In this document: one piece after another, positions 21,906-57,186 of the stretch | Layout of the letters: each line of letters begins with the position of its first letter | Numbering within the stretch: position 1 is the first letter of the stretch | NCBI RefSeq assembly: GCF_028369105.1 | Contig: NZ_JAQNDO010000001.1 | Coordinates: forward strand, 1,971,711-2,035,710 | Direction: 5' to 3' | Length of the DNA stretch: 64,000 bases | DNA from: Polyangium mundeleinium | GTDB lineage: Bacteria > Myxococcota_A > Polyangia > Polyangiales > Polyangiaceae | Notes under the pieces: model-generated | The model's database searches: none | Told to the model about the DNA's origin: nothing | Seen by the model: the letters and a program-made list of their open reading frames with translations, nothing else | Made by a program: the position numbers and the translations under genes

Positions 21906-22153
21906 TGCCGGGGGGGAGTCCCGTAATTACGGCAGTCGGAGTCCAAATGACGGCAGTCTGTACCGCCCTTTCACCCGCCCTCGACCCGCTCCCCTGAACA
22001 CGTGTGCTCGGATCGACCGTGATTGGCCCGGCTTGCCCGCGTCGGAGAGCGCGCCCGCGACGTCGCTCCTCCCGCTTGGATCGATCGGATGCGCGCGGTG
22101 GTCGTGGGATGTTGACAAGGCTCCCGGGGGTGACGTAAGCTGATATACGGGAC

Positions 22154-42448: not shown

Positions 42449-43951
42449 ATGCCGGAAACTACGAGCGTCAAGCAACTCATCGCCTCGAGCGCGGACGGCG
42501 GGGCGATCATCGATCAGATCCTCGCCGAGGGCGCGATGGTTCGGGGGGACAACCCCGTCCAGAAGAAGCACGCCCGCGACATCGTCGGAGAGTTCTGCCA
42601 GCAGATCCTCGACGAGCGGGATCCGAAGGACAAGCAGCGCGCCATTGATCTCGGCGCGGTGGCGGCCATTCAGGATCGCATCAACGAGATCGACGAGATC
42701 ATCGGCAAGCAGCTCGACGTGATCCTGCACGCGCCCGAGTTCCAGTATCTCGAAGCGCGGTGGCGGGGCCTGCACTACCTCGTCATGAACACGGAGACGA
42801 GCACGCGGCTCAAGATTCGCGTGATCAACGTCCGCAAGGACGAGCTCCGCAAGGATTTCGAGGCCTCGCCCGAGTTCGATCGCAGCTCGCTCTTCAAGAA
42901 GGTGTACGAGGAGGAGTACGGCACGTTTGGCGGCGCGCCCTACGGCCTGCTCCTCGGCGACTACGAGTTCGACGGTTCGAGCCCGGACGTCGGCCTCTTG
43001 ACCGAGCTTTCGAAGGTCGCGGCGGCGGCGCACGCGCCGTTCATCTCGGCGTCGAGCCCGTACCTCTTCGACATGGAGAACTTCGGCCAGATCGGCGTGC
43101 CCGGTGATCTCGCCAAGCTCTTCGAGAGCACGCAGCTCATCCAGTGGAAGGAGTTCCGCGAGACCGAGGACAGCCGTTACGTCGGCCTCGTCCTGCCGCA
43201 CGTCCTCATGCGCCTGCCCTATGGCCCGAAGGGCGTGCCGGTGGACGGCTTCATGTACGAGGAGAACGTCGGCGCGGAGGACAAGAACTTCCTCTGGGGC
43301 AACGCGGCGTATGCACTCGGCCAGCGGATCACGAACGCGTTCGCGCATTATGGCTGGTGCGCGGCGATCCGCGGCGTCGAGGGCGGCGGCCTCGTCGAGA
43401 ACCTCCCGGTGCACGTCTTCAAGACGAGCGAGGGTGATCTCGCGGTGAAGACCCCGACCGAGGTGGCGATCACCGATCGTCGCGAGAACGAGCTCTCCGA
43501 GCTCGGGTTCATCTCGCTCTGCTATCGCAAGAACAGCGGCCAGGCCGCGTTCTTCGGCGGCGCGACCGCGAACAAGCCCAAGGTGTACAACCTGCCCTCG
43601 GCGACGGCGAACGCCCGTCTCTCGGCGCAGCTCCCGTACATCATGGCGACGAGCCGGTTCGCCCATTACATCAAGGTCATGATGCGCGACAAGATCGGCA
43701 GCTTCATGACGAAGGACAACGTGTCGTCGTACCTCAACAACTGGATCGCGGACTACGTGCTCCTGAACGACGACGCGGGTCAGGACACGAAGGCGCGGCT
43801 GCCTTTGCGCGAGGCGCGGATCGACGTCACCGACGTTCCCGGCAAGCCGGGGGCGTACCGTGCCGTCGTTTTCTTGAAGCCGCACTTCCAGCTCAACGAG
43901 CTCACGGTCTCGATGCGCCTCGTGGCGGATCTTCCGCCTCCTGTGGCGTGA
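42449..43951 (+). CDS. tssC: T6SS sheath large subunit TssC (VipB).
   Basis: 500 aa. Conserved TssC blocks ('GGAPYGLLLGDYEF', 'WGNAAYA'). Confidence 0.9.
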   Translation: MPETTSVKQLIASSADGGAIIDQILAEGAMVRGDNPVQKKHARDIVGEFCQQILDERDPKDKQRAIDLGAVAAIQDRINEIDEIIGKQLDVILHAPEFQYLEARWRGLHYLVMNTETSTRLKIRVINVRKDELRKDFEASPEFDRSSLFKKVYEEEYGTFGGAPYGLLLGDYEFDGSSPDVGLLTELSKVAAAAHAPFISASSPYLFDMENFGQIGVPGDLAKLFESTQLIQWKEFRETEDSRYVGLVLPHVLMRLPYGPKGVPVDGFMYEENVGAEDKNFLWGNAAYALGQRITNAFAHYGWCAAIRGVEGGGLVENLPVHVFKTSEGDLAVKTPTEVAITDRRENELSELGFISLCYRKNSGQAAFFGGATANKPKVYNLPSATANARLSAQLPYIMATSRFAHYIKVMMRDKIGSFMTKDNVSSYLNNWIADYVLLNDDAGQDTKARLPLREARIDVTDVPGKPGAYRAVVFLKPHFQLNELTVSMRLVADLPPPVA

Positions 43952-45063: not shown

Positions 45064-46868
45064 GCAAGGGAGATCCCGATCGGGAGATGCTCGAGCTCTA
45101 TGCGCGCGAGCTCGCGTATCTGCGCGAGCGTGGCGCCGAGTTCGCGAAGGACTATCCGAAGATCGCGGCGCGCCTCGGTACCTCGAACCAGGCCTCGGCC
45201 GATCCCCACGTCGAGCGCCTCGTCGAGGCCTTTGCGTTCCTCTCGGCGCGCCTCACGCGGGACATCGAGGCCGAGCTGCCGATTTACACGACGTCGCTGC
45301 TCGGCACGCTGTATCCGCAGCTCGCGTGTCCCGTGCCGGCAATGGCGATCGCCGGGTTCGAGATCGACCCGAAGGAAGCCAAGCTCGGCTCCGGGTACAC
45401 GGTCGAGAAGCACACGCCGCTCTTCGCGGCCTCGCAGAGCGGCCCTGTTTGTTATTTTCGTACGGCGTTTCCGGTCACGCTCTGGCCGATCGAGATCGTC
45501 AATGCGGGCATGGTCCCGCCCGAGAACCTCGACGTCCCCTCGTGGCTGCTCACGAACGCCGCGGCGGCGCTCGAGATCGAGATCGCGACCGGCGGGGTGC
45601 CGCTCGACAAACTCGGCATGCGCTCGCTGCGCTTCCACATCGCGGGCGGCGGCATGGGCGCGGCGCGCCTCTACGATCTGCTCGCGGCGCACGCCGTGCA
45701 GGTCCTCGTGGTCGGGGAAAACCCCTCGCAAGATTGGACGTACGGCAAGATTCGCCCCGTCGGCTTCGAGGCGAACGAGGACGTCCTGCCGTATCCGCCG
45801 CACGCGCACCGCGGCCATCGCCTCGTGCAGGAGTATTTCGCGTTCCCGGAGAAGTTTCATTTCTTCGACATCGAGCTGCCGAAGCTCCCGCCGCGCAAGA
45901 ACGCGAAGATCCTGGTCCTCTTCGATCAGAAGCCGCCGGCCGGCGTCGCGGTCCGCCCGACGACGTTGAAGCTCGGCTGCACCCCGATCATCAACCTCTT
46001 CCCGCGCAGCGCCGAGCCCATCCGCGTCGATCACACGCGGCCCGAGTATCGCCTCGTCGCCGACGCGCGCCGCGAGCGGACCACCGAGGTCCATTCAATC
46101 ACGCGCGTCGCGGCCACCGCGCCCGGCGAGCCCAAGCAGGTCGACTACGCGCCGTTCTTTTCCTTCGTGCACCACCGCGCGGGCGAGCGGCCGCGCGCGT
46201 TCTGGCACGCGCGCCGCGTCGCCACGGGCCGCAAGGACCTGCCGGGCACCGACGTCTGGCTCACGTTCGTCGACACGGACTTCAAGCTCGCGCGTCCCCC
46301 GTCGGAGACCGTCTACGCCGGCGTCCTCTGCACGAACCGCGATCTCGCGAACGAGATCGCCAAGGACACGCAGCTCTCGCCCGAGCGCCCCGTCCCGGCG
46401 CGAAAAATCGTTTGTCTCACGAAACCGACCCCCCAGCGCGCCGCGCCCATGGGCGGCGAAGCGCTCTGGCGGCTCGTCTCGAACCTCTCGCAGAACCACC
46501 TCTCGATCACGGACGGCAAGACGGGCGTCGCGGCCCTGCGCGAGATCCTGCGCGCCTATGTCTTCGGCGACGCGCCCGACGCCGAGCGCCAGATCGACGC
46601 GCTCCTCGAAGTGTCGAGCCGCGTGGTCACGCGCCGCCTCGGCAGCGACGCGTGGCGGGGGTATTGCCGGGGCCTCGAGATCACGCTCACGCTCGCGGAC
46701 GAGCAGTTCGCCGGATCGAGCCCGGTCCTCTTGGCCTCGATCCTCAGCCGATTCTTCGCCTTACAGGCGCACATCAATGCGTTCACCGAGCTCGTGCTGA
46801 AGCGAGCATCGCGCGCGGAGGTCTGGAAACGATGGCCGCCCACGGCTGGCGAAAGAGCCCTTCTGTAG
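45060..46868 (+). CDS. tssF: T6SS baseplate protein TssF.
   Basis: 602 aa. ATGA overlap with tssE. TssF-like N-terminal region 'LELYARELAYLRERGAEFAKDYPKIAARLG'. Confidence 0.85.
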   Translation: MSKGDPDREMLELYARELAYLRERGAEFAKDYPKIAARLGTSNQASADPHVERLVEAFAFLSARLTRDIEAELPIYTTSLLGTLYPQLACPVPAMAIAGFEIDPKEAKLGSGYTVEKHTPLFAASQSGPVCYFRTAFPVTLWPIEIVNAGMVPPENLDVPSWLLTNAAAALEIEIATGGVPLDKLGMRSLRFHIAGGGMGAARLYDLLAAHAVQVLVVGENPSQDWTYGKIRPVGFEANEDVLPYPPHAHRGHRLVQEYFAFPEKFHFFDIELPKLPPRKNAKILVLFDQKPPAGVAVRPTTLKLGCTPIINLFPRSAEPIRVDHTRPEYRLVADARRERTTEVHSITRVAATAPGEPKQVDYAPFFSFVHHRAGERPRAFWHARRVATGRKDLPGTDVWLTFVDTDFKLARPPSETVYAGVLCTNRDLANEIAKDTQLSPERPVPARKIVCLTKPTPQRAAPMGGEALWRLVSNLSQNHLSITDGKTGVAALREILRAYVFGDAPDAERQIDALLEVSSRVVTRRLGSDAWRGYCRGLEITLTLADEQFAGSSPVLLASILSRFFALQAHINAFTELVLKRASRAEVWKRWPPTAGERALL

Positions 46869-47890
46869 AGGCCTGGCTCTTCGACGAGGGGCACGCGTTC
46901 GATTTTTATCAGGCCGTCTCCCTCCTCGAACACTGGCGCGAGGGCGACGCCGTCCCCGTCGGCGAAGGCTCCGATCCGTCGCGCGAGTCCGTGCGATTTG
47001 CCGGGAGCGTCGCGCTCGCCTTCCCCGAGACCGACGTCGCGCGTATTCGCCCGCCGCACCGCGAGGGCGAGCCTGCGAAGATGCTCGTGAACTTCCTCGG
47101 CCTCGGCGGCGCCCTCGGCCCGCTGCCGCCGCCCATCGTCGAGTCGATTTACATGCGCGCCGTCCGCGGCGACACCGCGGCGCGTGATTTCCTCGACATC
47201 TTCAACCACCGCCTCGTCTCGTTTGCTTATCGCATCCGCAAGGGCCACCGCGTCGGCCTCGGCGCCTCCTCGCCCGAGAAGGACGATGCGGCGCGGCACC
47301 TCTTCGCCCTGCTCGGCCTCGGCTTCAAGGCGCTCGAAGGCCGGCTCGCGGTCCAGGATCGGGCGCTCCTCGAGCACGCGGCGAACCTGGGGAGCGAGTC
47401 GCGCTCGCTCGAAGGCCTCGTCGCGATCCTCCGCCGGCATTTCGGCGTTCCCATCGAGCCCATCCCGCTCACCGGGGCCTTTCACCCGATCGAGGAGGCC
47501 GACCGCACGGCGATCGGCCGATCCGGCCAGAACCGCGCGCTCGGCCGTGACGCTTGCCTCGGGGGGCGTTTCTGGGATCAGGAGTCCACGTTCGATCTGC
47601 GCATCGGGCCCATGAAGCTCGATGAATTCCTTCGATTCCTCCCGGACGGCGACGCGCTCGGGCCTCTCTGCTCCCTCGTCCGTTTTTATGCAGGCGCACG
47701 ATTCCACTTCGGCCTCATCCTCGTCCTCGCCGAGCGCGAGGCGCCGCGGATCGAGCTCGGGAGCGCCACGTGCGCGCTCGTCGGCCAGATCGCCTGGCTC
47801 GGAAACGTGAACAAGAACGGCGGCAAGATCCGCGAGGTGCGTTTGTCCCGTGCGGCCATTCGGAAGGGGCTCGGCGAGGCGCCGGGCTGA
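46832..47890 (+). CDS. tssG: T6SS baseplate protein TssG.
   Basis: About 350 aa starting 'MAAHGWRKSPSVEAWLFDEGHAFDFYQAVSLLE'. The ATG overlaps the end of tssF. The listed 1017-aa ORF in this frame is an upstream read-through. Confidence 0.8.
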   Translation: MAAHGWRKSPSVEAWLFDEGHAFDFYQAVSLLEHWREGDAVPVGEGSDPSRESVRFAGSVALAFPETDVARIRPPHREGEPAKMLVNFLGLGGALGPLPPPIVESIYMRAVRGDTAARDFLDIFNHRLVSFAYRIRKGHRVGLGASSPEKDDAARHLFALLGLGFKALEGRLAVQDRALLEHAANLGSESRSLEGLVAILRRHFGVPIEPIPLTGAFHPIEEADRTAIGRSGQNRALGRDACLGGRFWDQESTFDLRIGPMKLDEFLRFLPDGDALGPLCSLVRFYAGARFHFGLILVLAEREAPRIELGSATCALVGQIAWLGNVNKNGGKIREVRLSRAAIRKGLGEAPG

Positions 47891-48108
47891 AGGACTCCCT
47901 CATCCCCGCCCCTCGTTCATCGCTTGGGGGCTTCGCTTGGACGAGCCGAGCTCTGCCCCCAAACCCCCCTCGCGGGAGAGGGGAGAAGAGGCGTCTGGCG
48001 AGGGGTGAGGCTTGTCAACGGCGCGCGCGCCGCGGTATCGTGGCATCCCGATTTCGTGGGCATCGCTCGCCGTGACCGCGCCATTGGGAGAGGACGGTTC
48101 TTAGCCGC

Positions 48109-51100
48109 ATGACGACCGCAGATCAGAGCCAGGGCGCCACGGAGAGCATTCCGAGCAAGCTCGGGAAGTTCGCCTCGGAGCAGATCGACAAGGCCGAGGT
48201 CACGGTCACGAAGGGCGTCTCGACCGTCCGCGACTCGACGAACCAGATCATCAGCAAGGCCGAAGAGCAGATCCTCAAGCTCAACAAGGCCCTCTACGAG
48301 ACCAAGAACGGGATCTCGGCCGGCATCGACACGGCGATCAAGGAGACCGAGGGCCAGCTCAAAGGGATCACGCCCGAGCTCAAGAAGATGGGCGAGGAAG
48401 CCATCTCGACGGCCAAGGGCAAGCTCGACGGCCTCGTCGACGAGGTCGAGGGCAAACTCGAATCGCAGAAGGACACCCTCGTCAAGACGGCGCAGGATCA
48501 GATTCAGAGCGCGGCCGACGCGGCGAAGGGCAAGATCGACGAGATCGGACAGCTCGGCGAGGATCAGGCGACGAAGGTCCTCGACGCGGTGAAGGCGCAG
48601 GCCGACACGGTCGATCAGAAGCTCGGTGATCTCGGCGGACAGATCGACGGCAAGATCGAGGCGATCGGCTCCGATCTGCGCGCCAAGTTCGAGCTGGCGC
48701 TCGCGAAGGTGCCCGACCACGACGGCGCGAAGGTCGAGATGTCGGCGAACGTCGACGCTGTCGTCGACGAGCTGCGCTCTGCGACGAAGGACTCGATCGA
48801 GCAGGCGCGCGAGACGCTGAAGTCGCTGGTCAAGCAGACCGACGACACGATCAAGCAGACGATCGGCGACGTGCGGCGCACGATCGGCGAGGTCCCCACG
48901 CGCATCAACCAGTGCGCGCAGGACATCATCGCGAAGGTCAATGACGCGATCCAAAAGACGATCGACGAGATCTCGAACCTCGCGCACGGGCTCGTCGCGC
49001 GCACGGCGGAGCTGCTCAACGAGGCGCTGCTCACGATCACGAGCACCGTGGACAAACTCCTCGCGGACGGCTTCGCGCTCGTGCGGGGGATCAAGGCCGA
49101 TCTCGATCGTCTGCTCGACAAGCTGCTCGAACAGATCCGCGATTTGACGCTCGGCACGCTGGAAGACGTGCGCAAGGCGGCGAACGAGCTGCTCGGCACG
49201 TTCGAGACCGAATGCAAGAAGATCCTCCAGACGATGGAGGATTCCGTCGTGGGCTCGGTCGAGGAGCTCGGCGGCAAGATGAACGCCTCGATCAAGGCGC
49301 TCCAGGCCGAGTTGAACCTCGACGCCGACAAGATCGTCCGGGATCTCGTGGCCGAGGGCGCGAAGGGCCACGACGACGCGCTCGCCGACTTCATCAGCGC
49401 TGGTTACGAAGAGGACACCTCGGTCATCCCCAAGATCCGCGCGAAGGGCGAGGCTGCGATCAAGCAGATCGAGGCCAAGACGAAGGCGCAAGGGGAGAAG
49501 CTGATCAAGGACTTCGAGATGCAGGCGACCCTGCTGAAGCCCAAGATCCAGGCGCAGGGCATCAAGGTCGTCGCGCAGATCGCCGCGCTCGGGCCGAAGC
49601 TCGCGATGCAGGCGGTTCAGATCGCGTCGAGCATCGCTTCGAGCATCAAAGACAAGGGCGAGGCGGTCAAGAAGACGTTCGAGGAGCTGCAGAAGACGCT
49701 CGTCGACGCGATCACGAAGAAGATCCCCGATTACCTCGACAACTGCAAGAAGCAGATCAAGGCCGCGGCCGACGCGCTCGTCGAGGCGGGCAAGACGTTC
49801 TACGAGAAGACGCTCGCCGACCTCATGGCGACGATCAAGGCGGCCGAGGCGCGTTTCAAGAAGCTCGCCTTGGAGATGAAGGACCTCATCGAGACGCAGG
49901 TCCTCGAGCTCGTCGCCTCCATTCGCAGGACGGTGGAGACCTCGATCCAGCGCTTCAAGGATCTCGGCAAGGCGTTCGAGGACAAGACGAACGCGCTCAT
50001 CAACGACATCCCGGCGCGGCTCATCAAGCTGGAGCAGGTCGCGAGGCTCGCGGTCGATCGGGAAATCGCGCTGGCGAAGGGGCTCGCCAATGCGACGAAG
50101 GAAGACATTCTCCTCAAGGCGCGGACGGCGCTTTCGGAGATCAAGAAAGCGGCGTACGGGGTCCTCGGCGGGATTCAGGGGGATCTCGGCGCGGTGCAGG
50201 GCTCGCTCGCGCTCGTGATCCCGGCGGGCGCAGGGCTCGACGCGGCGGGCGCGATCAACCTCGCGGTGTCGGGCGGGCTCGAAGGGATGATTGCGTCGGC
50301 GGCGAACGCGGCGTCGGCCGTGGTGACGGCGGGCGTGAATGCGGCCGAGGCCGTGAATTCGGCGGCGGAGCAGGCGGCGGCCGCGATGGGCGCGGCGGGA
50401 TTCGAAGGCGCGGCGAATGCATTGACGGGCGTGCTCTCGCAGCAGATGGGCGAGGTGCGGACGGAAGGCGAGAAGGCCAAGAACGTCATTGCCGCGGCCA
50501 AGGAGAAGATGACGGCGGTCGCCAAGGAGGCGAGCGATACGTGCACGCAGGCGGCGCAGGCGGCGCAGGCCGCGGCCGCGGAGGTCGTGGAGGCCGCGAA
50601 TGCGACGGGTGACGCGGTCAAGGCGTCGGCCGAGAACCTGACGAAGGGCCTCGAAAAGGCGAAGGACATCGTCAAGGAAGCCGGCAAGACCGCGATGCAA
50701 TCGATGAAGGAGGCCCAGGACGCGCGCAAGGGCGGCGACGGCGCGCAGGCCGGCGCGGGCGCGCAGGCCGGGGCCGGCGGCGCGGATGCTGCGGCCGGCG
50801 GCGCGGAGGCGGGCGGCGCGGACGCGGCGGCAGGCGGCGCGGACGCGGCGGCAGGCGGTGCGGATGGCGCGGCGGCGCCCGAGGGCGAGGCGGCGGCGGA
50901 TGCGGCTGCGGAGGCAGCGGCTCCGGACGCGAAGGCAGCGGCCCCGGACGCGAAGGCAGCGGTTCCGGACGCGAAGGCAGCGGTTCCGGACGCGAAGGCA
51001 GCGGTTCCGGACGCGAAGGCAGCGGCTCCGGACGCGAAGGCAGCGGTTCCGGGCGCCCCTGCGGGAGTTCCGGACGCAAAGGCAGCGGTTCCGGGCGCTC

Positions 51101-51915
51101 CTGCGGGAGTTCCGGACGCGAAGGCAGCGGTTCCGGGCGCCCCTGCGGGAGTTCCGGACGCGAAGGCAGCGATTTCGGGCGCCCCTGCGGGAGTTCCGGA
51201 CGCGAAGGCAGCGGTTCCGGGCGCCCCTGCGGGAGTTCCGGACGCGAAGGCAGCGATTCCGGGCGCCCCTGCGGGAGTTCCGGACGCGAAGGCAGCGGTT
51301 CCGGGCGCCCCTGCGGGAGTTCCGGACGCGAAGGCAGCGGTTCCGGGCGCCCCTGCGGGAGTTCCGGACGCGAAGGCAGCGATTCCGGGCGCCCCTGCGG
51401 CGGTTCCAGGCGCCCCTGCGGCGGTTCCGGGTGCGGACGCGGCCGCCGCAGCAGCGCCGAAGCCCGGTGAAAAGCCTGCCATTCCAGGCGGCGCGGCCGT
51501 GCCCGCGGCCCCGAAGGTCGGCGATAAACCCGCCGTGCCCGCGGGCGCCGCGCCTGCCGCGCCCGCCGTCCCCGGTGCTCCCGCGGCCTCCGGTGCTCCC
51601 GCCGTCCCCGGTGCTCCCGCGGCCCCGAAGGTCGGCGACAAACCCGTCGTGCCCGCGGGAGCCGCTGCTCCCGCCGCGCCTGCTGCGCCCGGCGTCCCGG
51701 CGGCCCCTGCGGCCAAGCCCGCGGCGCCCGTGGTCCCCGCCGGCGCCAAACCCGCGCCCGCAGCCCCCGGCGCCCCCGTGGTCCCTGCCGGCGCCAAACC
51801 CACGCCCGGCGCCCCCGTGCCTCCGTCCGCGCCCGCATCCCCCGGCGCCAAGCCGGGCACCCCTGCCGCTCCCGGCGCGAAATGGCCCGGCAGCGGCGGC
51901 AAACCCGGCGTGTGA
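48109..51915 (+). CDS. Large (1268 aa) K/E/A-rich alpha-helical-repeat (apolipoprotein/tape-measure-like) protein with a C-terminal tandem Pro/Ala repeat region ('PDAKAAV' x6, then 'VPGAPAGVPDAKAA' x9) and a P/A/G/V-rich tail. Function unknown; encoded directly after tssG in the T6SS operon orientation.
   Basis: No TM or signal peptide. Strong host-like codon usage. Perfect 21-bp and 42-bp DNA tandem repeats at about 50923-51420. Confidence 0.6.
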   Translation: MTTADQSQGATESIPSKLGKFASEQIDKAEVTVTKGVSTVRDSTNQIISKAEEQILKLNKALYETKNGISAGIDTAIKETEGQLKGITPELKKMGEEAISTAKGKLDGLVDEVEGKLESQKDTLVKTAQDQIQSAADAAKGKIDEIGQLGEDQATKVLDAVKAQADTVDQKLGDLGGQIDGKIEAIGSDLRAKFELALAKVPDHDGAKVEMSANVDAVVDELRSATKDSIEQARETLKSLVKQTDDTIKQTIGDVRRTIGEVPTRINQCAQDIIAKVNDAIQKTIDEISNLAHGLVARTAELLNEALLTITSTVDKLLADGFALVRGIKADLDRLLDKLLEQIRDLTLGTLEDVRKAANELLGTFETECKKILQTMEDSVVGSVEELGGKMNASIKALQAELNLDADKIVRDLVAEGAKGHDDALADFISAGYEEDTSVIPKIRAKGEAAIKQIEAKTKAQGEKLIKDFEMQATLLKPKIQAQGIKVVAQIAALGPKLAMQAVQIASSIASSIKDKGEAVKKTFEELQKTLVDAITKKIPDYLDNCKKQIKAAADALVEAGKTFYEKTLADLMATIKAAEARFKKLALEMKDLIETQVLELVASIRRTVETSIQRFKDLGKAFEDKTNALINDIPARLIKLEQVARLAVDREIALAKGLANATKEDILLKARTALSEIKKAAYGVLGGIQGDLGAVQGSLALVIPAGAGLDAAGAINLAVSGGLEGMIASAANAASAVVTAGVNAAEAVNSAAEQAAAAMGAAGFEGAANALTGVLSQQMGEVRTEGEKAKNVIAAAKEKMTAVAKEASDTCTQAAQAAQAAAAEVVEAANATGDAVKASAENLTKGLEKAKDIVKEAGKTAMQSMKEAQDARKGGDGAQAGAGAQAGAGGADAAAGGAEAGGADAAAGGADAAAGGADGAAAPEGEAAADAAAEAAAPDAKAAAPDAKAAVPDAKAAVPDAKAAVPDAKAAAPDAKAAVPGAPAGVPDAKAAVPGAPAGVPDAKAAVPGAPAGVPDAKAAISGAPAGVPDAKAAVPGAPAGVPDAKAAIPGAPAGVPDAKAAVPGAPAGVPDAKAAVPGAPAGVPDAKAAIPGAPAAVPGAPAAVPGADAAAAAAPKPGEKPAIPGGAAVPAAPKVGDKPAVPAGAAPAAPAVPGAPAASGAPAVPGAPAAPKVGDKPVVPAGAAAPAAPAAPGVPAAPAAKPAAPVVPAGAKPAPAAPGAPVVPAGAKPTPGAPVPPSAPASPGAKPGTPAAPGAKWPGSGGKPGV
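50923..51420. repeat. Intragenic tandem DNA repeats (6 x 21 bp, then about 9 x 42 bp) encoding PDAKAAV/VPGAPAGVPDAKAA units.
   Basis: Near-identical repeat units with a g/a, t/c wobble, visible directly in the sequence. Confidence 0.85.
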
Positions 51916-51979
51916 CGTTCGCCCGCGGAGATGAGGCACAGCGCCGTTTGACCCGAAAGCCGGGCTCCGGCGTCGACCC

Positions 51980-53041
51980 ATGAGCGACTACCAGGACTGC
52001 ACGCTCATCGAGATTCGCGGGGCGAGGGAATTCGTCGTCGACGCACGACGGGTGCATGCAGATGCGCTGCTGCCGCTGCCGTCGGACCCCGCCACGATGC
52101 TGCGCATGCTTTGTGAAGGAACACGCGCGAAGGCGCTGCCGACGATCGCGCCCGACCTCGATTATTTCGACGAAGCGCAGCTCCTCGACAAGGCGAGTGG
52201 TTTCTTCGACGACGTGGAAGTCCTCGCGTGTGGCGCGCGCGCGGGCCAGCTCGAAGCGCGGTACCGGATCCGCTTGCGGACAAACCTCGACTGGCGTCGC
52301 CACGAAGCGGGCGCGCGGTGGGGCGCAGCCGCGGCCGTCTGGCTGCCCGGTGTGGGCGGAGCGCCCAGCGAGCTGCTCACGCATCTCGCCAGAAATGCGC
52401 GAGGCAAAAAAGGGGGTACGCCCGCCGAGCGCCTCGCGACGTTGAAGAACATCATTCGAACCCGCGTGCGCGACGTCGGCGCGGCCGCGAAGCAGCTCGG
52501 CACGTTCGAGGCCGAGGCTTCGGACATGGCGTTCGAGTTGAGCCGATTTCTCTATTACCCGTACCTCGCGGTCGACGTCGCGCCCGCGCTCGGGCTCCTC
52601 GGTCATCCGTCCGCCGTTGGACCGCTCGTCCTCGCGCTCCTGCACACCGAGCGCCTGAGGTTGCCCCATGACAAACCGTGTGCGCCGTATTTTCAGCAGG
52701 CGCTCGCCTGGCTCGGCCCGATCGCAAAGCCACTCGCCGAGGCTGTCCTCCGCGCGCCCGGGGAGGAGACCCTGGAGCTTGATTTTGCGCGATGGCGCGT
52801 GCTCGGCGACGATGACGCGCGCCGCAGGTTCGTCGCGACGAAGGCGCCCTCCAACGTCAACGCCGCCCTGATGTTCAAGCTCCGGCGCAAGGCCCTCCTT
52901 ATCGACGGCCCGAGCACGCAGCTTCGAGACATCATCGACGGCGTGCGGGAGGGCCTCCGCAAAAAGAAAGACCTCGACGGCCTCGGGACGTCCTTCGCGC
53001 AGCTCGAAAAGGTCGCCCTCGCGCGTTGCGCCAAGGCGTAA
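51980..53041 (+). CDS. Hypothetical protein (353 aa), convergent with the PAAR-like gene.
   Basis: Coding-like codon bias. No family recognized. Confidence 0.5.
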   Translation: MSDYQDCTLIEIRGAREFVVDARRVHADALLPLPSDPATMLRMLCEGTRAKALPTIAPDLDYFDEAQLLDKASGFFDDVEVLACGARAGQLEARYRIRLRTNLDWRRHEAGARWGAAAAVWLPGVGGAPSELLTHLARNARGKKGGTPAERLATLKNIIRTRVRDVGAAAKQLGTFEAEASDMAFELSRFLYYPYLAVDVAPALGLLGHPSAVGPLVLALLHTERLRLPHDKPCAPYFQQALAWLGPIAKPLAEAVLRAPGEETLELDFARWRVLGDDDARRRFVATKAPSNVNAALMFKLRRKALLIDGPSTQLRDIIDGVREGLRKKKDLDGLGTSFAQLEKVALARCAKA

Positions 53042-53047
53042 CGCCTC

Positions 53048-53437
53048 TCAGGGCACCTGGACCGTGACCTGCCCGGGGAACGAGATCTGAATCACGCCGC
53101 CCCACATACACATCAGCTTCGAGCTGTTGTTCAGCGCGGGCATGTTCGCCAGGAGCACCGTGGGTGCACCAACGATCCACGGCGCCGGCGTGTTCGGAAT
53201 GCACGGCATCGGCGTGAGCACGCCCATCGCCGCCGCCGTCGCCGCGGCCACCGTCGGGTTCGCCAGGCTCTGACACATCCCGAACGGCAGCACGTTCAGC
53301 ATCGGCTTGCCGTCCATGATGTTCGCCAGCGGTCCTGCGCTGTTCAACGTCCGGTTCGCGGGCAGCACCGTGAGCGAGCTCGGCGCCACGCCGAAGCTGC
53401 ATTGCATCATCGCGCCCATGCATACGTGCTGGCCCAT
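53048..53437 (-). CDS. PAAR-like DUF4280-family protein.
   Basis: 129 aa. 'CMGAMMQCSFGVAPSSLTVLP...LPFGMCQSLANPTVAAATAAAMGVLTPMPCIP...KLMCMWGGVIQI' matches the DUF4280 pattern. Located downstream of vgrG. Confidence 0.8.
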   Translation of the reverse strand: MGQHVCMGAMMQCSFGVAPSSLTVLPANRTLNSAGPLANIMDGKPMLNVLPFGMCQSLANPTVAAATAAAMGVLTPMPCIPNTPAPWIVGAPTVLLANMPALNNSSKLMCMWGGVIQISFPGQVTVQVP

Positions 53438-53439
53438 CG

Positions 53440-54192
53440 TCAGCCTCCCGCGAGCTTGTTCACGATCTTGTCGAAGAAGGACGTCTCCTTCTCCTCCTTC
53501 GACTTGGGAATGCCCTTGTCGTCGTACTCGACTTCGCCGCGCTTCTCGCCGTCCTTGTACGACGCCTTCGCCTTCAGCTTGCCTTGCACGTCGTAGCTGA
53601 ACGCGTCGCCTTGTTTCTTGCCGTTGTCGTACGTGGCGCGCTCGCGGACCTCGCCGTTCGGGAAGTACTCGATCACTTCCCCGTGCAGTTTGTCCGCCTT
53701 GTAGTTCGCTTTCCGCAGCGTGTTGCCCTTGCCGTCGAGGAACAAGGACTCGCCTTCGAGCTTGCCGTTCTTGTAGAACGACCGCACGACCTCGTTTCCC
53801 TGCTCATCGAACGACAGGAACGGGCCGTTCTGTTTGCCCTTCTCGAAATGCATCAGCGTCCGCAGCCGGCCCTCGTCGTAAAGACGCGTCGGCCCGTGCT
53901 GCTCGCCTTTCACGAACGTCACGATCTGCGAGATCTTGCCGTGCTCGTCGAAGAGCTTCGTCTCGCCGTGCAGCGCGCCGTTCTCGAAGGACGAACGCTC
54001 GACCTCGCGCCCCTCCGGGTCGTACGTGATCGACAGCCCGTGGAGCTTGCCCTTCGCGTAATTCGCCCGGTGCGCGATCTGCTTTTCGGTCTCCCCGTAC
54101 TGGACGAACTCCCCGTGCAGCTCGCCCTCTTCCATCTGGAACCGGGAGATCAGCTTGCCGGTTTCGTCGCGCTCTTCGTGGTCGGTCGGCAT
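53440..54192 (-). CDS. MORN-variant (YwqK-family) repeat protein, 250 aa, between vgrG and the PAAR-like gene.
   Basis: About 8 tandem 'G..HG....Y..NG.L' MORN_2-type repeats. The real start 'MPTDHEERDE' lies 12 nt after the vgrG stop; the 627-aa ORF in the track is an antisense/frame read-through of vgrG. Confidence 0.75.
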   Translation of the reverse strand: MPTDHEERDETGKLISRFQMEEGELHGEFVQYGETEKQIAHRANYAKGKLHGLSITYDPEGREVERSSFENGALHGETKLFDEHGKISQIVTFVKGEQHGPTRLYDEGRLRTLMHFEKGKQNGPFLSFDEQGNEVVRSFYKNGKLEGESLFLDGKGNTLRKANYKADKLHGEVIEYFPNGEVRERATYDNGKKQGDAFSYDVQGKLKAKASYKDGEKRGEVEYDDKGIPKSKEEKETSFFDKIVNKLAGG

Positions 54193-54203
54193 CGGGCCCT
54201 CGC

Positions 54204-56204
54204 TCAGTTGATCTTCACCATGCCGCCCTTCAACGTCAGCATGCCGCCGCCCTCCACCGCCGCCTGCGCGCCGCCCTTCGCCTTCAGCGCGATCGCGCCC
54301 TCGAGCGTCATGTTCGTCCCGCCCTTGGCCTTGAAATCGGTGCCGGCCTTCAGCGTCATCCCCGTCCCGGACTCGGCCTTGAAATCCGTGCCCGCCTTCA
54401 TCGTGAACGCCTGCTTGGCCTTGATCGTGACGCTCTTCGCCTCGATCACGAGGTCGCCGTCGACCTTGATCGTGTAGTTCTTCGTCACCTTGTAATCGAG
54501 GTTCGCCTTGTTCGTGTGCGCCTCGTCCTTGGTGATCTCCAGCGTGCGTTTGCCCTTCACGCTGTGCGTCTCGTCGCCCTTGTCGACCTTGATCGTGCGG
54601 TTGCCCTTGGTGACCGTGAGCGACTCGTCGCCCTCTTCGATCGTCACCTTCCGCTCGTTTTTGACGTTCTTCGTGTAATCGTGGAGGACCTTCACCGTCC
54701 AGTCGTTCTCCACCTCGAAGAGCATGTCCTTCTGGGCGTGCGCGTAGAACTCCTCGCTGTCCTTCTTGTCCTCGAAGCGCAATTCGTTCCCCGCGTCGCC
54801 CTCCTTCGTCGAGCGGCTCAGGATCGTGCTCTTCGTCTGCGCGCCCGGCAGCCCATAAGGCACCGTTTGCTCCGCGTTGTACACCGAGCCCGTCACGAGC
54901 GGCCGGTCCGGATCGCCGTCGATGAAGCTCACGACGACCTCTTGCCCGATGCGCGGCAAGAACCACGCGCCCCAGCTCTTGCCCGCCCAGGACTGCACGA
55001 CCCGCACGAAGCACGAGCTCTTGTCGTCCTTCGCGCCCTTGCGATCCCAGTGGAACTGGACCTTGATGCGCCCGTATTCGTCCGTCCACTGCTCCTCGCC
55101 GCTCTTGCCCACGACGACGGCCGTTTGCGTGCCGGGGATCGCGGGCTTCGGCGTGATGCGCGGCGGGCGGTACGGCGTCTTCTTCGGGAAGCCCTCGAAG
55201 GTATTCGTGTACCCCTCCTGGCTCGCCCGATGCACGACCGCGCCGAGGACCCAGTCGGTGTTCGCGTCGTCCCGATCGTGCTCGTCGAGCTTGAACGCGT
55301 GGCCCGCGGTGAAGGCGCGACAATTGGATGCGCCGGACAAACGCACCGCCCGCGCCTCCTCCGCTTCGATGCGGAGCTTCGCGCGCGCGTCGCCCGGGCT
55401 CTTCTCGATGTGCCCGCCCGGGTACTCGAAGAGCTCGAGCTTGCCGGATTCACCCGAGACCTCCGCGAGCAGCGACGTGCTCGGCATCTCGAAGTTGTAA
55501 TCCGTCGACGCGTACTTCCCCGCGACGATCTCTTCTTCGAGCGTGCACTCGACGACCGCGTCCTCGTCCGTCGACGACGAGAACTGCTCGACGAACCGCG
55601 CCTTGTCGAGGTTCGGGCACGGCACGGCCGACGCGCTGTCGTCGGTCAAGACCATCACGTGCTTGCCGTCCTCGTGCGTGAAATAATAGTGGATCCCCTC
55701 GTCCTCCATGAGACGCGACACGAAATCGAGCGCGGTCTCCTGGTACTGCACGCAGTAGGGGCGCGGCGCGTACGAGCCCTTCAGCGAATCCTTGAAGTGC
55801 TCGCCCGACGAGAAGCCGAGCTCCTGGAAGAGCGCCTTCAGGATGTCGGGTACGCTCTTCTCCTGGAAGATGCGGCAATCGCTGGTCTTGCCGAGGAGCC
55901 ACAACCACGGGTGCAGCTCCGCGCGGTAGCGTGTCTGCTTGCCGACGCGACCTGCCTGGACGAACCGCGTGCAGATCCCGTGGATGAAGCGCGGCTTCTC
56001 CTTGGCCATGCCCCGGATCGTCAAGGTCACGCCCTTGCCGACGATCGCCTTGAAGTCGAGCGCCTTTTCCGGCGACACGAGCTCGAGCTCGAAGCGGAAG
56101 AGCCCCGAGATCCGCTCTTCACCGTGCAGATCGACGAGCAGAACCGCATCCGCGCCGAAAGGCGTCGAGATGGCGATGCCGAGGCTGCCCTGCGGATAAG
56201 GCAT
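54204..56204 (-). CDS. vgrG: VgrG (TssI) spike protein.
   Basis: 666 aa with gp27-like and gp5-like regions ('RFIHGICTRF', 'WAGKSWGAWFLPRIGQEVVVSFIDGDPDRPLVTGSVYN'), and C-terminal beta-helix repeats 'TMKAGTDFKA...'. Confidence 0.9.
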   Translation of the reverse strand: MPYPQGSLGIAISTPFGADAVLLVDLHGEERISGLFRFELELVSPEKALDFKAIVGKGVTLTIRGMAKEKPRFIHGICTRFVQAGRVGKQTRYRAELHPWLWLLGKTSDCRIFQEKSVPDILKALFQELGFSSGEHFKDSLKGSYAPRPYCVQYQETALDFVSRLMEDEGIHYYFTHEDGKHVMVLTDDSASAVPCPNLDKARFVEQFSSSTDEDAVVECTLEEEIVAGKYASTDYNFEMPSTSLLAEVSGESGKLELFEYPGGHIEKSPGDARAKLRIEAEEARAVRLSGASNCRAFTAGHAFKLDEHDRDDANTDWVLGAVVHRASQEGYTNTFEGFPKKTPYRPPRITPKPAIPGTQTAVVVGKSGEEQWTDEYGRIKVQFHWDRKGAKDDKSSCFVRVVQSWAGKSWGAWFLPRIGQEVVVSFIDGDPDRPLVTGSVYNAEQTVPYGLPGAQTKSTILSRSTKEGDAGNELRFEDKKDSEEFYAHAQKDMLFEVENDWTVKVLHDYTKNVKNERKVTIEEGDESLTVTKGNRTIKVDKGDETHSVKGKRTLEITKDEAHTNKANLDYKVTKNYTIKVDGDLVIEAKSVTIKAKQAFTMKAGTDFKAESGTGMTLKAGTDFKAKGGTNMTLEGAIALKAKGGAQAAVEGGGMLTLKGGMVKIN

Positions 56205-56319: not shown

Positions 56320-57186
56320 ATGACGTTCTTTCGAACGGGCATGGGGCTCTTCCAGCTCGGCCGCCCCAAGCTCCCGAGCCGCGACGAGGCCGTCGAGATG
56401 CTCGTGCAAATGGCCCAAAAGCGGGGCGGCGCGCGGTATCTGCGAGGCGTCCTCGCCGACGACGTCCCCAAGGTCCTCGTCGACACGATGCCCGACGACG
56501 AGGTCTTGCGTTCGCTCGTCGAGCGCATCTCGACCGGACGCATCACGTTCGTGCTCTTGCGCCCGCGCGACACCCGCGCGCCGGGCTTCTTCGTCGAGGG
56601 CGACGCGACGGGCGCCGTGCTCGGCCCGGAAAACAAGGCCGGCGATCTGCGCCCCGCGCCCGAGGTCCCGCCCGAGTATCCGGTGCTCGCGCGCGTCGAG
56701 AGCGATCAGGTCATCGAATCCACGGCGAAGCTCGTGGCGGATCTCGCGGCGCTGCTCTTCGGCAGGTTCGCCCGGGAGAAACGCGAATCGACGATCGCGC
56801 GCACGTACGTGCTCGTCGCGGGCGAGGAGGGATCGCGGATCCAGGGCGCGCGCAGCACGGTCGATATCGCGCTCGACACCGCGCGCTGGCCTGGCGGCGG
56901 CCTCGGGCGGCCGAAGCCTTCGGTGCCGGTCGAATACAAGAGCGCCGCGAAGACCACCGGCGAGAGCGCGCGCTTCGCGATCGACAAGCTCTCCGCCTCG
57001 CTCGGCCCTGCGTCGCCTCCGACGTCGAGCCGCCCCGCGCCCGCGGTGCCGGACACCTACGTGAACGTCGCGAGTGGCACCGCGCAGACGACGAAGGGCG
57101 CGATCGACTCGCTCGGCAAGAGCTTCGCCGACCTTTTCCGCGAGGCGCCTTTCGTGCGTCCGCGTAACACGAGTCCTGTCGAATGA
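56320..57186 (+). CDS. Hypothetical protein, paralog A of a duplicated pair (shares a conserved central domain with the downstream gene).
   Basis: 288 aa. The 'NKAGDLRPAPEVPPEYPVLARVESDQVIESTAKL' block is shared with gene B, including a 64-bp identical DNA run. Confidence 0.5.
   Translation: MTFFRTGMGLFQLGRPKLPSRDEAVEMLVQMAQKRGGARYLRGVLADDVPKVLVDTMPDDEVLRSLVERISTGRITFVLLRPRDTRAPGFFVEGDATGAVLGPENKAGDLRPAPEVPPEYPVLARVESDQVIESTAKLVADLAALLFGRFAREKRESTIARTYVLVAGEEGSRIQGARSTVDIALDTARWPGGGLGRPKPSVPVEYKSAAKTTGESARFAIDKLSASLGPASPPTSSRPAPAVPDTYVNVASGTAQTTKGAIDSLGKSFADLFREAPFVRPRNTSPVE

What the first reader, a model, noticed from the sequence alone, without database searches (positions are those of the whole stretch)
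48109..51915. 1268-aa helical-repeat, Pro/Ala tandem-repeat protein encoded where clpV normally follows tssG
The T6SS core set in this window is tssJKLMAB C hcp EFG but has no tssH/clpV. Immediately after tssG, in the same orientation, sits a large protein with no recognizable enzymatic domain. It has about 800 aa of K/E/A-rich amphipathic helical repeats (resembling apolipoprotein, LEA or tape-measure proteins) followed by perfect 21-bp and 42-bp coding tandem repeats (PDAKAAV; VPGAPAGVPDAKAA) and a P/A/G/V-rich tail. It could be a novel T6SS accessory or structural component (a length-determining, tether or cap-associated protein) or a membrane-active effector. The near-perfect DNA repeats indicate recent expansion and likely copy-number variability.
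Basis: partly seen in the sequence, partly recalled or inferred. Interest (0 to 1): 0.7.

Follow-up and report, generated by a model that had tools for sequence, protein, structure and literature searches.

The report
Giant helical-rod protein beside T6SS genes
A real, conserved 1268-residue gene for a long amphipathic helical rod with a fast-evolving Pro/Ala repeat tail sits where clpV lies in Myxococcus, but it has its own promoter and its relatives elsewhere (even in archaea) are not next to type VI secretion genes, so it is probably an unnamed structural protein family rather than a secretion-system part.

Summary
ORF 48109..51915 (+) is a genuine gene (GC3 0.86; dN/dS 0.12-0.26). It follows tssG in a Polyangium T6SS cluster that has no clpV in 64 kb. 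Residues ~14-695 are long helices with an 11/3 (hendecad) hydrophobic period. The tail holds near-perfect 21-bp and 42-bp coding repeats.

The T6SS interpretation is mostly not supported. The gene follows tssG in six Polyangium genomes. Orthologs of 71-80% identity in three other Polyangiaceae contigs, and distant relatives in other bacteria and in marine archaea, have no T6SS gene nearby. A promoter-like TTGTCA-N18-TATCGT element stays with the gene in both T6SS and non-T6SS settings, while the rest of the tssG spacer varies from 101 to 538 nt.

An exhaustive HMMER search of 1.84 billion representatives found only about eight full-length relatives, none named. Each library returns its own long-helix family: apolipoprotein, tape measure, ZorA tail, BAR domain. 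The resemblance is therefore generic.

Best reading: a member of a small unnamed family of rod-plus-disordered-tail proteins, probably membrane- or envelope-associated. It is lodged between two convergent T6SS operons. A role as T6SS cargo is not excluded; an OmpA domain in signal-less relatives and a baseplate-hub-like partner gene in archaea hint at it. Interest is moderate.

The parts
48012..48041 (+). Promoter-like element TTGTCA-N18-TATCGT, about 68 nt upstream of the ATG
   Evidence: It is the only sigma-70-like match in 47600..53500. It is unique in the window, with 0 expected by chance. The hexamers are conserved in all Polyangium loci, and in the non-T6SS loci L008, L009 and L023. The rest of the spacer varies from 101 to 538 nt.
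47891..48108 (+). 218-nt tssG-to-target spacer with a stable GC-rich hairpin region
   Evidence: It folds at -67.2 kcal/mol, z = -2.95 against shuffles. In L003 and L006 the spacer holds inserts of about 300-400 nt with inverted repeats. A variable spacer argues against tight translational or transcriptional coupling to tssG.
48109..51915 (+). Whole gene, 1268 aa, no signal peptide and no transmembrane segment
   Evidence: highest Kyte-Doolittle 19-mer is 1.57; purifying selection.
48148..50193 (+). Conserved family domain (about aa 14-695): long helices with hendecad periodicity and a strongly amphipathic surface
   Evidence: AlphaFold2 model, pLDDT 72. Period 3.66-3.68. Hydrophobic moment 1.25 against 0.52 in shuffles, with K/R at the interface and D/E at the polar centre. 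Colinear alignment with relatives of 23-28% identity.
49399..49452 (+). Most conserved motif of the family: AGYEEDTSVIPKIRAKGE (aa 431-448), a helix break. The most hydrophobic conserved stretch follows it (aa ~482-513, QGIKVVAQIAALGPKLAMQAVQIA...)
   Evidence: Invariant G432, Y433, E435, I440, I443, G447, then F469, Q483 and G484, in 9-11 sequences. pLDDT dips at 428-435. Hydropathy.
50206..50448 (+). Uncharged Ala/Gly-rich segment (aa ~700-780), specific to the Polyangium lineage
   Evidence: Composition A35 G14, 0 K/R and 5 D/E. Not conserved in the archaeal or distant bacterial members.
50923..51048 (+). Six tandem 21-bp coding repeats, PDAKAA[A/V]
   Evidence: Three consecutive units are identical.
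51049..51426 (+). About 8.5 tandem 42-bp coding repeats, PGAPAGV-PDAKAA[V/I]
   Evidence: Tandem Repeats Finder: period 42, 94% matches, score 753. Units laid out.
51427..51912 (+). Pro/Ala/Gly/Val/Lys-rich tail ending in KWPGSGGKPGV. The end motif is shared with P. jinanense (SKWPGSGNKP)
   Evidence: Further 18-bp and 48-bp repeats.
46865..47890 (+). tssG, the upstream neighbour (context, not part of the protein)
   Evidence: Pfam T6SS_TssG, 3.5e-85.
53048..56204 (-). Convergent operon vgrG - MORN_2 protein - DUF4280 (PAAR-like) (context)
   Evidence: Pfam. The order is conserved in P. jinanense L004.

Best explanation
The gene encodes a member of a small, unnamed family of very large non-enzymatic proteins. 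Each member has a rod of about 700 residues made of long, nearly straight amphipathic helices with an 11-residue (hendecad) periodicity. The rod breaks at a conserved GY-ED-x-x-I-P-x-I-R loop. A long disordered tail follows, lineage-specific and rich in repeats.

In Polyangium the gene is an independent transcription unit with its own promoter. It lies between two convergent T6SS operons, in the position where clpV lies in Myxococcus xanthus. That adjacency is a genus-level accident of gene order, not a functional replacement of ClpV.

Inferred mechanism (not shown): the rod presents a continuous hydrophobic face with Lys/Arg at its edges. It uses this face either to lie on a lipid or membrane surface, like exchangeable apolipoproteins and BAR-type bundles, or to bundle with itself into a fibre of about 25-30 nm. 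The Pro/Ala repeat tail acts as a flexible spacer or brush. Its length changes quickly by repeat gain and loss.

Shown: the gene is real and under purifying selection; its helical, hendecad, amphipathic anatomy; the promoter-like element that travels with it; the lack of T6SS linkage outside Polyangium; and the small size and lack of annotation of the family.

Inferred: lipid or self-association, the spacer role of the tail, and the cellular location.
For: Gene reality:
- Codon-position GC.
- dN/dS 0.12-0.26.

Family:
- Exhaustive HMMER over 1.84e9 representatives found only 13 hits below 1e-30. About eight are full length, 1054-2275 aa.
- They are colinear over about 690 residues with few invariant residues, clustered at aa 417-484.
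- No source gives any member a name.

Anatomy:
- All-helical AlphaFold2 model.
- 11/3 periodicity.
- Class-A-like charge distribution.
- No signal peptide or transmembrane segment in any member.

Generic nature of the similarity. Each library returns its own long-helix family:
- Pfam: Apolipoprotein, 64 bits against a cut-off of 90.
- PDB profile search: ApoA-IV 4.7e-11, ApoA-I, ApoLp-III.
- PHROGs: tape measure proteins.
- PADLOC: only the tail part of the ZorA profiles.
- Foldseek: SMC arms, TM-score <= 0.22.

Independence from the T6SS:
- The gene follows tssG in six Polyangium genomes.
- Orthologs of 71-80% identity in L008, L009 and L023 are not next to T6SS genes. L009 has DUF2330, cytochrome bd I and II, and a MopE protein upstream.
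- No T6SS homolog at tblastn E < 1e-3 in any of L008-L024.
- Archaeal loci carry archaellins and a GPN ATPase.
- The promoter-like element is conserved in both settings.

ClpV not replaced (inference):
- TssC keeps an N-terminal IIDQIL helix of the LLDEII class, which binds ClpV-N in V. cholerae (PMC4239648).
- Other T6SSs work without a clustered clpV, for example Francisella with ClpB, and Campylobacter.
Against: - The position inside a T6SS cluster is kept in all six Polyangium genomes and could reflect function.
- No direct evidence shows lipid binding or self-assembly. The AlphaFold2 tertiary packing is uncertain (pTM 0.38, alignment of 2 sequences).
- Three relatives carry an OmpA-like peptidoglycan-binding insert: P0006 (precomputed Pfam OmpA hit); P0009 (read from the sequence only; it keeps the N-x-x-L-S-x-x-R-A pattern); and a degenerate form in P0008. 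P0006 also has a faint Pfam hit (low-confidence tier) to the SpaA prealbumin-like fold domain, and none of the three has a signal peptide. A purely cytoplasmic role explains this poorly. It hints at export by a non-Sec route.
- Whether clpV exists elsewhere in the genome could not be tested.
Confidence: 0.5

Rival explanations
1. The protein is T6SS (or, more broadly, contractile-injection-system) cargo. It has no signal peptide. It is loaded on the VgrG/PAAR spike encoded opposite it and delivered to a neighbour's periplasm or membrane. There the amphipathic rod coats or perturbs membranes. In relatives, an OmpA-like domain would bind peptidoglycan.
For: - The gene lies between tssG and the convergent vgrG-MORN_2-DUF4280 operon in six genomes.
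- No family member has a signal peptide or transmembrane segment.
- P0006 nonetheless carries an OmpA domain by Pfam, plus a faint Pfam hit (low-confidence tier) to the SpaA prealbumin-like fold domain. P0009 shows the OmpA motif by eye only.
- In every archaeal contig the family gene is adjacent to, or 3 kb from, a conserved gene of 455-700 aa. That gene hits PHROG 4930 'baseplate hub' at 1.3e-05 to 1.5e-05.
Against: - Close orthologs and all distant bacterial relatives have no T6SS or CIS gene within up to 10 kb.
- The gene has its own promoter and is convergent to vgrG, not in the vgrG operon.
- There is no toxin domain, no MIX, PAAR, Hcp or VgrG fusion, and no adaptor family.
- There is no conserved downstream immunity-like gene. 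The 353-aa ORF 51980..53041 is absent in P. jinanense.
- The hub-like call is weak. Only 2 of 8 members reach E < 0.01. There is no Pfam, NCBIfam or PDB hit. hhalign against the window VgrG is negative. The AlphaFold2 model is unusable at pLDDT 40.
- A disordered tail of about 400 residues is unusual for spike-borne cargo.
Confidence: 0.2
2. The protein belongs to the cell envelope or surface. It is exported by a non-classical route. The rod lies on or between membranes, and the Pro/Ala tail spans the periplasm or wall as TonB/TolA-type or OmpA-hinge linkers do. It is unrelated to T6SS firing.
For: - OmpA-like inserts in relatives: Pfam in P0006; by eye in P0009.
- A faint Pfam hit (low-confidence tier) to the SpaA prealbumin-like fold domain in P0006.
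- A Pro/Ala/Lys-rich extended tail with a conserved KWPGSG end.
- A class-A amphipathic surface.
Against: - No member has a Sec or Tat signal, a lipobox or a transmembrane anchor.
- The archaeal members have acidic tails ending in a basic patch, and no peptidoglycan-related domain was found in them.
- No export system is linked to the gene.
Confidence: 0.15
3. The protein is a dedicated structural accessory of the Polyangium T6SS: a tether, cap, stabiliser or length-setting (tape-measure-like) element that compensates for the missing clpV.
For: - It occupies clpV's syntenic slot after tssG (PMC4239648).
- Five PHROG tape-measure families match at 3e-11 to 7e-07.
- The TssA here is the short form (362 aa). 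In other systems short TssA recruits accessory stabilisers (PMC7896307).
Against: - There is no AAA+ domain, so it cannot do ClpV's job.
- The known short-TssA partners TagB and TagJ are proteins of about 30 kDa, and no Pfam or NCBIfam family assigns the target to any T6SS family.
- Orthologs in related Polyangiaceae and all other relatives are far from T6SS genes.
- The archaeal members are in contigs with no T6SS gene.
- No relatives were found in viral contigs.
- The tape-measure hits are matched by equally good hits to apolipoproteins and ZorA tails, so they are periodicity-driven.
- The tail length varies between species while the T6SS proteins are 94-99% identical.
- Canonical T6SS sheath length is not known to be set by a tape measure (established knowledge).
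Confidence: 0.07

Closest known systems
Exchangeable apolipoproteins (ApoA-I, ApoA-IV, ApoE, apolipophorin III; Pfam PF01442, PF07464)
   Same: Long amphipathic helices with 11/22-residue periodicity, and basic residues at the polar/non-polar boundary. These are the best sequence-profile matches in Pfam and the PDB.
   Different: - The score is below Pfam's gathering threshold (64 against 90 bits).
- There are no Pro-punctuated 22-mers and no internal sequence repeats in the rod.
- The protein is three to five times longer.
- It is prokaryotic and has no signal peptide.
- It has a conserved GY-ED loop and a Pro/Ala repeat tail.
The resemblance is analogy, not shown homology.
ZorA cytoplasmic tail (Zorya anti-phage system)
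   Same: A very long helical tail region. PADLOC ZorA profiles match at up to 1e-15, and PDB 8vvn_C at 5.6e-04.
   Different: Matches cover only profile positions after about 265, which is the tail. There is no MotA/ExbB membrane domain and no ZorB neighbour.
Phage and CIS tail tape measure proteins
   Same: Long helical proteins without enzymatic domains. Five PHROG tape-measure families match.
   Different: - No tail, tube, sheath or chaperone genes adjoin the bacterial relatives.
- No viral relatives were found.
- The domain architecture and length vary within the family (OmpA inserts; 1054-2275 aa).
- The disordered tail varies between species.
T6SS accessory proteins TagA, TagB, TagJ and the ATPase ClpV/TssH
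   Same: The gene sits in a T6SS cluster, at the place clpV occupies in M. xanthus.
   Different: There is no sequence or domain similarity. TagB and TagJ are about 30 kDa (PMC7896307). ClpV is an AAA+ ATPase. Linkage to the T6SS is limited to one genus.
BAR/F-BAR/I-BAR domains and the ClyA-type helical bundle
   Different: Sequence identity is 5-11% and rmsd is high. The matches cover about 200-260 of 696 residues. Any long helical bundle would give such matches.

Membership tests
ClpV/TssH (T6SS AAA+ unfoldase) | Two AAA+ nucleotide-binding domains and a ClpV-type N-domain | tested here: not met
   No AAA, Clp_N or related hit in Pfam or NCBIfam at E <= 1. The protein is all-helical rod plus low-complexity tail.
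Dedicated T6SS component (core or accessory) | Co-occurrence with T6SS genes across the lineages that carry the gene | tested here: not met
   Adjacent to tssG in six Polyangium genomes. No T6SS homolog is near the gene in L008, L009, L023, L010-L013, L024 or the archaeal loci.
Dedicated T6SS component (core or accessory) | Co-transcription with the T6SS operon | tested here: inconclusive
   Sequence only. The spacer is 218 nt and variable, and holds a conserved promoter-like element and a stable hairpin. No RNA data are available.
Known T6SS accessory families (TagA, TagB, TagJ, TssA-like) | Sequence match to the family models | tested here: not met
   No T6SS family in Pfam or NCBIfam matches the target. 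TagB and TagJ are about 30 kDa.
Exchangeable apolipoprotein (PF01442) | Score at or above Pfam's gathering threshold | tested here: not met
   64.2 bits against a cut-off of 90.
Exchangeable apolipoprotein (PF01442) | 11/22-residue amphipathic periodicity of class A type | tested here: met
   Period 3.66-3.68. K/R peak at 90-120 degrees and D/E at 120-180 degrees from the hydrophobic centre.
Exchangeable apolipoprotein (PF01442) | Reversible lipid binding | not testable with these tools
   Needs liposome or lipid-droplet binding assays.
Tail tape measure protein | Encoded within a tail or CIS module, next to tube, sheath, chaperone or hub genes | tested here: not met
   The condition holds only in Polyangium, where the module is a canonical T6SS that has no known tape measure. 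It does not hold in the other bacterial loci. The archaeal loci have one weak hub-like neighbour and no other tail genes.
Tail tape measure protein | Relatives in viral genomes | tested here: not met
   No relative in IMG/VR with the family motif. The PHROG hits of 3e-11 to 7e-07 are matched by non-phage long-helix families.
ZorA (Zorya) | MotA/ExbB/TolQ membrane domain and a ZorB partner | tested here: not met
   PADLOC matches cover only the tail part of the profiles. There is no transmembrane segment. No MotB/ZorB-like neighbour was found.
T6SS cargo effector | Marker domain or fusion (MIX, FIX, PAAR, VgrG, Hcp, Rhs), or a neighbouring adaptor (DUF4123, DUF1795, DUF2169) and immunity gene | tested here: not met
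   No such Pfam hit in the target. The downstream 353-aa ORF matches nothing in Pfam, PHROGs, NCBIfam or PADLOC and is absent in P. jinanense.
T6SS cargo effector | T6SS-dependent secretion | not testable with these tools
   Needs secretome comparison of wild type and a tssM mutant.

The most novel reading that the evidence does not exclude
The family is a previously unrecognised class of cargo or accessory protein of contractile injection machines, shared by bacteria and archaea. It is placed in the T6SS cluster opposite vgrG/PAAR in Polyangium, and it is paired with a baseplate-hub-like gene in marine archaea. Some bacterial members have no signal peptide yet carry an OmpA peptidoglycan-binding domain, as expected for something delivered into another cell's envelope. 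Its amphipathic hendecad rod would then be a new kind of membrane-coating payload.
Probability: 0.12. Interest if true: 0.75.

Novelty: new variant of a known kind. Interest (0 to 1): 0.38.

Why it matters
As a T6SS matter it is mostly a caution. Position inside a secretion-system cluster, even in the slot of a missing core gene, does not make a gene a component. Here the comparative context argues against that.

The protein itself belongs to a rare family with no name: about eight clusters at 50% identity among 1.84 billion representatives. The family is shared by Polyangiaceae, other bacterial contigs (one recovered from a TARA Oceans marine sample) and marine archaea. It has an unusually long, unbroken hendecad amphipathic rod and a hypervariable repeat tail.

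If the weak hints of a link to contractile injection systems were confirmed, it would define a new cargo or accessory class spanning two domains of life. If not, it is still a candidate prokaryotic counterpart of apolipoprotein-like or BAR-like membrane-surface proteins, and worth a localisation experiment.

The repeat tail also breaks short-read assemblies. That is a practical warning for annotation of these genomes.

Tried and rejected
- **Word-indexed homolog search** with the N-terminal 864 aa returned one protein. The candidate list was saturated by low-complexity words. The exhaustive representative search replaced it.
- **Exact-sequence look-ups** of the window protein and of the P. jinanense ortholog found nothing on record.
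- **Fold comparison** of the N-domain model gave only generic long-helix matches. The afdb50 library was unavailable.
That model was too poor to use, pLDDT 40.
- **The hub-like partner** had no Pfam, NCBIfam, PADLOC or PDB-sequence match, and hhalign against the window VgrG was negative. Only PHROG 4930 matched, in 2 of 8 members.
- **The viral contig scan** found no relatives.
A narrower alignment found two more loci, neither linked to a T6SS.
- **Literature searches** for apolipoprotein-like T6SS proteins, and for Polyangium T6SS, gave nothing specific.
- **Whether clpV lies elsewhere in the genome** could not be tested.
- **Rejected: ClpV substitute.** There is no ATPase domain.
- **Rejected: ZorA.** Only the tail part of the profiles matches.
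- **Rejected: true apolipoprotein family member.** The score is below threshold.
- **Rejected: tape measure.** The genomic context is wrong and there are no viral relatives.
- **Error in one calculation:** the dN/dS rows for L008 are out of register and were ignored.

Full report
**1. The observation**

The window has 69% G+C and comes from a Polyangium species. The target's first 696 residues are 97% identical to P. fumosum DSM 14668 and 89-94% identical to five other Polyangium genomes.

ORF 48109..51915 (+) encodes 1268 residues and begins at the first start codon after an in-frame stop. In such GC-rich DNA long ORFs appear in several frames; an antisense ORF of 1354 aa overlaps this one. 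Three results single out the + frame:
- G+C by codon position is 0.72/0.51/0.86.
- dN/dS is 0.12-0.26 against orthologs.
- It has colinear homologs down to 23-28% identity.

Pfam confirms the neighbours:
- Upstream on the same strand: tssK, tssL, tssM, tssA, tssB, tssC, hcp, tssE, tssF, tssG.
- Downstream on the opposite strand: vgrG, a MORN_2 protein and DUF4280 (PAAR-like).
- The small ORF before tssK has no family hit, but it has a lipobox at the place expected for tssJ.
- No ORF of ClpV size in the 64 kb has an AAA+ hit.

The tandem repeats are as described. There are six 21-bp units (PDAKAA[A/V], 50923..51048), then about 8.5 units of 42 bp (PGAPAGV + PDAKAAV, to about 51426). Many units are identical at the DNA level.

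**2. Anatomy of the protein**

- AlphaFold2 (pLDDT 72, pTM 0.38) predicts helices at 14-198, 204-260, 262-431, 440-657 and 664-695.
- The hydrophobic periodicity is 3.66-3.68 residues, that is 11/3. Its power is 220-410, against at most about 100 in shuffles.
- The helices are strongly amphipathic, with a hydrophobic moment of 1.25 against 0.52 in shuffles.
- Aliphatic residues lie within about 60-90 degrees of the hydrophobic centre. Lys and Arg peak at the boundary. Asp and Glu lie at the polar centre.
- There is no signal peptide and no transmembrane segment.
- After residue 695 come four regions: an uncharged Ala/Gly-rich stretch (700-780), a further helical stretch (780-875), Ala/Gly/Asp low-complexity sequence, and then the repeats and a Pro/Ala/Gly/Val/Lys tail ending in KWPGSGGKPGV.

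**3. What the libraries say**

No library places the protein in a family above a curated threshold. Each library returns whatever long-helix family it holds.

| Library | Best matches |
|---|---|
| Pfam | Apolipoprotein, 64 bits against a cut-off of 90; Baculo_PEP_C |
| NCBIfam | Only E > 5e-4 |
| PDB, family profile | ApoA-IV 4.7e-11, ApoA-I, ApoLp-III, ApoE, designed bundles, a ZorA chain |
| PHROGs | Five tape-measure families, 3e-11 to 7e-07 |
| PADLOC | The tail part of the ZorA profiles only; LeoA |
| Foldseek | SMC arms, chemoreceptor, PrgA, Umb1; TM-score <= 0.22 |

This spread shows that the similarity comes from periodicity and composition. It describes how the protein is built. It does not show which family it belongs to.

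**4. The family**

An exhaustive HMMER search of 1.84 billion cluster representatives found 13 proteins below 1e-30. About eight are full length (1054-2275 aa) and the rest are fragments. Below them comes a continuum of unrelated coiled-coil proteins.

- Members align colinearly over about 690 residues.
- The invariant positions cluster in the middle: G417, G432, Y433, E435, I440, I443, G447, F469, Q483, G484. This is the motif AGY-ED-x-S-V-I-P-x-I-R-x-x-GE, which coincides with a helix break. The most hydrophobic conserved stretch follows it.
- All members end in disordered, repeat-rich tails, but the tails differ by lineage. They are Pro/Ala/Lys-rich in Polyangium. In the archaeal members they are acidic repeats with a basic C-terminal patch.
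- P0006 carries an inserted OmpA-like domain (precomputed Pfam hit).
- P0009 shows the OmpA-type N-x-x-L-S-x-x-R-A pattern, read from the sequence only. P0008 has a degenerate form.
- P0006 also has a faint Pfam hit (low-confidence tier) to the SpaA prealbumin-like fold domain.
- No member has a signal peptide or a transmembrane helix.
- No source gives any member a name.

**5.

In six Polyangium genomes the gene directly follows tssG. Five of those contigs end inside the tail. This fits repeat arrays that short reads cannot resolve.

The one complete ortholog (P. jinanense, L004) is 1225 aa. It has different repeat units (AAKVE[A/V]P instead of PGAPAGV). It is followed directly by DUF4280 and lacks the 353-aa ORF found in the window.

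Outside this genus the linkage disappears:
- Orthologs of 71-80% identity in three contigs of about 57-58% G+C are not next to T6SS genes. L008 and L009 are titled as Polyangium and Polyangiaceae MAGs; L023 is an unlabelled metagenome contig.
- L009 has DUF2330, cytochrome bd subunits I and II, and a MopE-motif protein upstream.
- Distant bacterial members (L010, L011/L012 from a TARA marine sample, L013, L024) have no T6SS gene in up to 10 kb on each side.
- tblastn with all T6SS proteins of the window finds nothing at E < 1e-3 in any of L008-L024.
- Several members are archaeal. Their contigs carry archaellins, a GPN-loop ATPase and a geranylgeranyl reductase.

**6. Own promoter**

The 218-nt spacer after tssG contains the only sigma-70-like match in the region: TTGTCA-N18-TATCGT at 48012..48041. 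It is unique in the window, with none expected by chance.

In an alignment of the spacers these hexamers are the only conserved block besides the start codon. They are present in the non-T6SS loci L008, L009 and L023 too. The rest of the spacer ranges from 101 to 538 nt, and L003 and L006 have inserts of about 300-400 nt with inverted repeats. The first part of the spacer folds into a stable hairpin region (z = -2.95).

The element therefore travels with the gene, not with the T6SS operon. This is sequence evidence only; no transcript data were available.

**7. clpV**

In M. xanthus TssB is MXAN_4807, TssC is MXAN_4808 and ClpV is MXAN_4813 (PMC4239648). That numbering fits the order B-C-hcp-E-F-G-clpV, so the target sits in clpV's slot; the intervening gene assignments are from my own recollection, not from the paper.

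It cannot do ClpV's job, because it has no ATPase domain. The TssC of the window keeps an N-terminal IIDQIL helix. This belongs to the LLDEII class, which binds the ClpV N-domain in V. cholerae. That suggests a ClpV acts on this sheath and is encoded elsewhere. This is an inference; I could not scan the genome a second time.

T6SSs without a clustered clpV are already known. Francisella uses ClpB, and Campylobacter lacks ClpV.

**8. Hints that keep a link to injection machines alive**

- Signal-less relatives carry a peptidoglycan-binding domain. That is what one would expect of a protein delivered into another cell's periplasm.
- In every archaeal contig the family gene is next to, or in L019 3 kb from, a conserved gene of 455-700 aa.
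- That partner matches PHROG 4930, 'baseplate hub', at 1.3e-05 to 1.5e-05.

The partner's identity is weak. Only 2 of 8 members reach E < 0.01. There is no Pfam, NCBIfam, PADLOC or PDB match. hhalign against the window VgrG is negative. The AlphaFold2 model is unusable at pLDDT 40. No other tail gene lies nearby. The partner has no homolog in the window or in any bacterial locus.

**9. Conclusion**

The most likely account is an independent gene for a non-enzymatic rod-plus-tail protein. It is lodged between two convergent T6SS operons in one genus.

From its anatomy I infer two things. The rod binds a lipid or membrane surface, or bundles with itself. The Pro/Ala tail is a flexible spacer whose length drifts by repeat gain and loss.

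Confidences:
- Independent structural protein (main explanation): 0.5.
- Cargo of the T6SS: about 0.2.
- Envelope protein exported by another route: about 0.15.
- Dedicated T6SS structural part or tape measure: about 0.07.

The protein is not a member of any named family. I class it as a new variant of a known kind (long hendecad amphipathic helical proteins) and rate it of moderate interest.

Noticed in passing
L014:8427-9917 (+); also L001:3-668, L016, L017, L018, L019:8711-10204, L021:7027-8634, L022: In marine archaeal contigs the family gene is always paired with a conserved, unannotated gene of 455-700 aa (P0152-P0159). The only database match of that partner is PHROG 4930 'baseplate hub', at 1.3e-05 to 1.5e-05 in 2 of 8 members. 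In L019 the family gene (13293-16727) was not called by the gene finder.
   Followed up: partly
window 58740..62492 (-): A 1250-aa protein with SH3_3, PG_binding_1 and a C-terminal Peptidase_M15_3 domain lies close to vgrG. It is a plausible peptidoglycan-hydrolase T6SS effector. P. jinanense has a 42%-identical relative nearby in L004.
   Followed up: partly
window 56320..57186 (+) and 57183..58730 (+): Two ORFs lie divergent from vgrG. The first has no family hit. The second has two prealbumin/CarboxypepD_reg-like domains of the transthyretin-like kind, which from my own knowledge serve as T6SS effector-recruitment modules.
   Followed up: no
window 51980..53041 (+): A 353-aa ORF lies 64 nt after the target. 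It has coding-like G+C and no hit in Pfam, PHROGs, NCBIfam or PADLOC. It is absent from the same position in P. jinanense (L004), so it is a variable insert between the convergent operons.
   Followed up: partly
window 30095..34189 (+): A 1364-aa ORF lies directly upstream of the tssJ-like lipoprotein gene and has no Pfam family. Its only match is a weak beta-propeller repeat hit in NCBIfam. It may be a lineage-specific T6SS-associated protein.
   Followed up: no
window 42449..42560 (+), N-terminus of TssC: TssC keeps an IIDQILAEG helix that resembles the LLDEII ClpV-binding motif of V. cholerae VipB. This suggests a ClpV encoded elsewhere in the genome.
   Followed up: partly
L003:~9505-10000 and L006:~9597-10000: The tssG-to-target spacer carries inserts of about 300-400 nt with GC-rich inverted repeats (for example GAACTGCGC...GCGCAGTTC). 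They look like small mobile or REP-like elements and are shared by these two strains only.
   Followed up: no
P0001, P0002, P0005 N-termini (L001:834-...): Three archaeal members start with a Cys-rich motif, M-(T/S)-C-x-C-(V/I)-x-C. The bacterial members instead share (T)ES(I/V)P(S/A)(K/R)(L/M)G. The N-terminal peptide is thus conserved within each lineage, and its role is unknown.
   Followed up: no
window 2472..7724 (-), 7514..12349 (-), 13642..18033 (+), 18047..21946 (-): Upstream of the T6SS cluster lie three giant TPR-repeat proteins (1463-1750 aa, one with an N-terminal zinc ribbon) and a 1299-aa phospholipase-D/VWD protein.
   Followed up: no
L002, L003, L005, L006, L007 (contig ends about 600-790 nt after residue 696 of the target): Five of six Polyangium draft assemblies break inside this gene's low-complexity and repeat tail. 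The gene is therefore truncated or missing in their annotations.
   Followed up: partly
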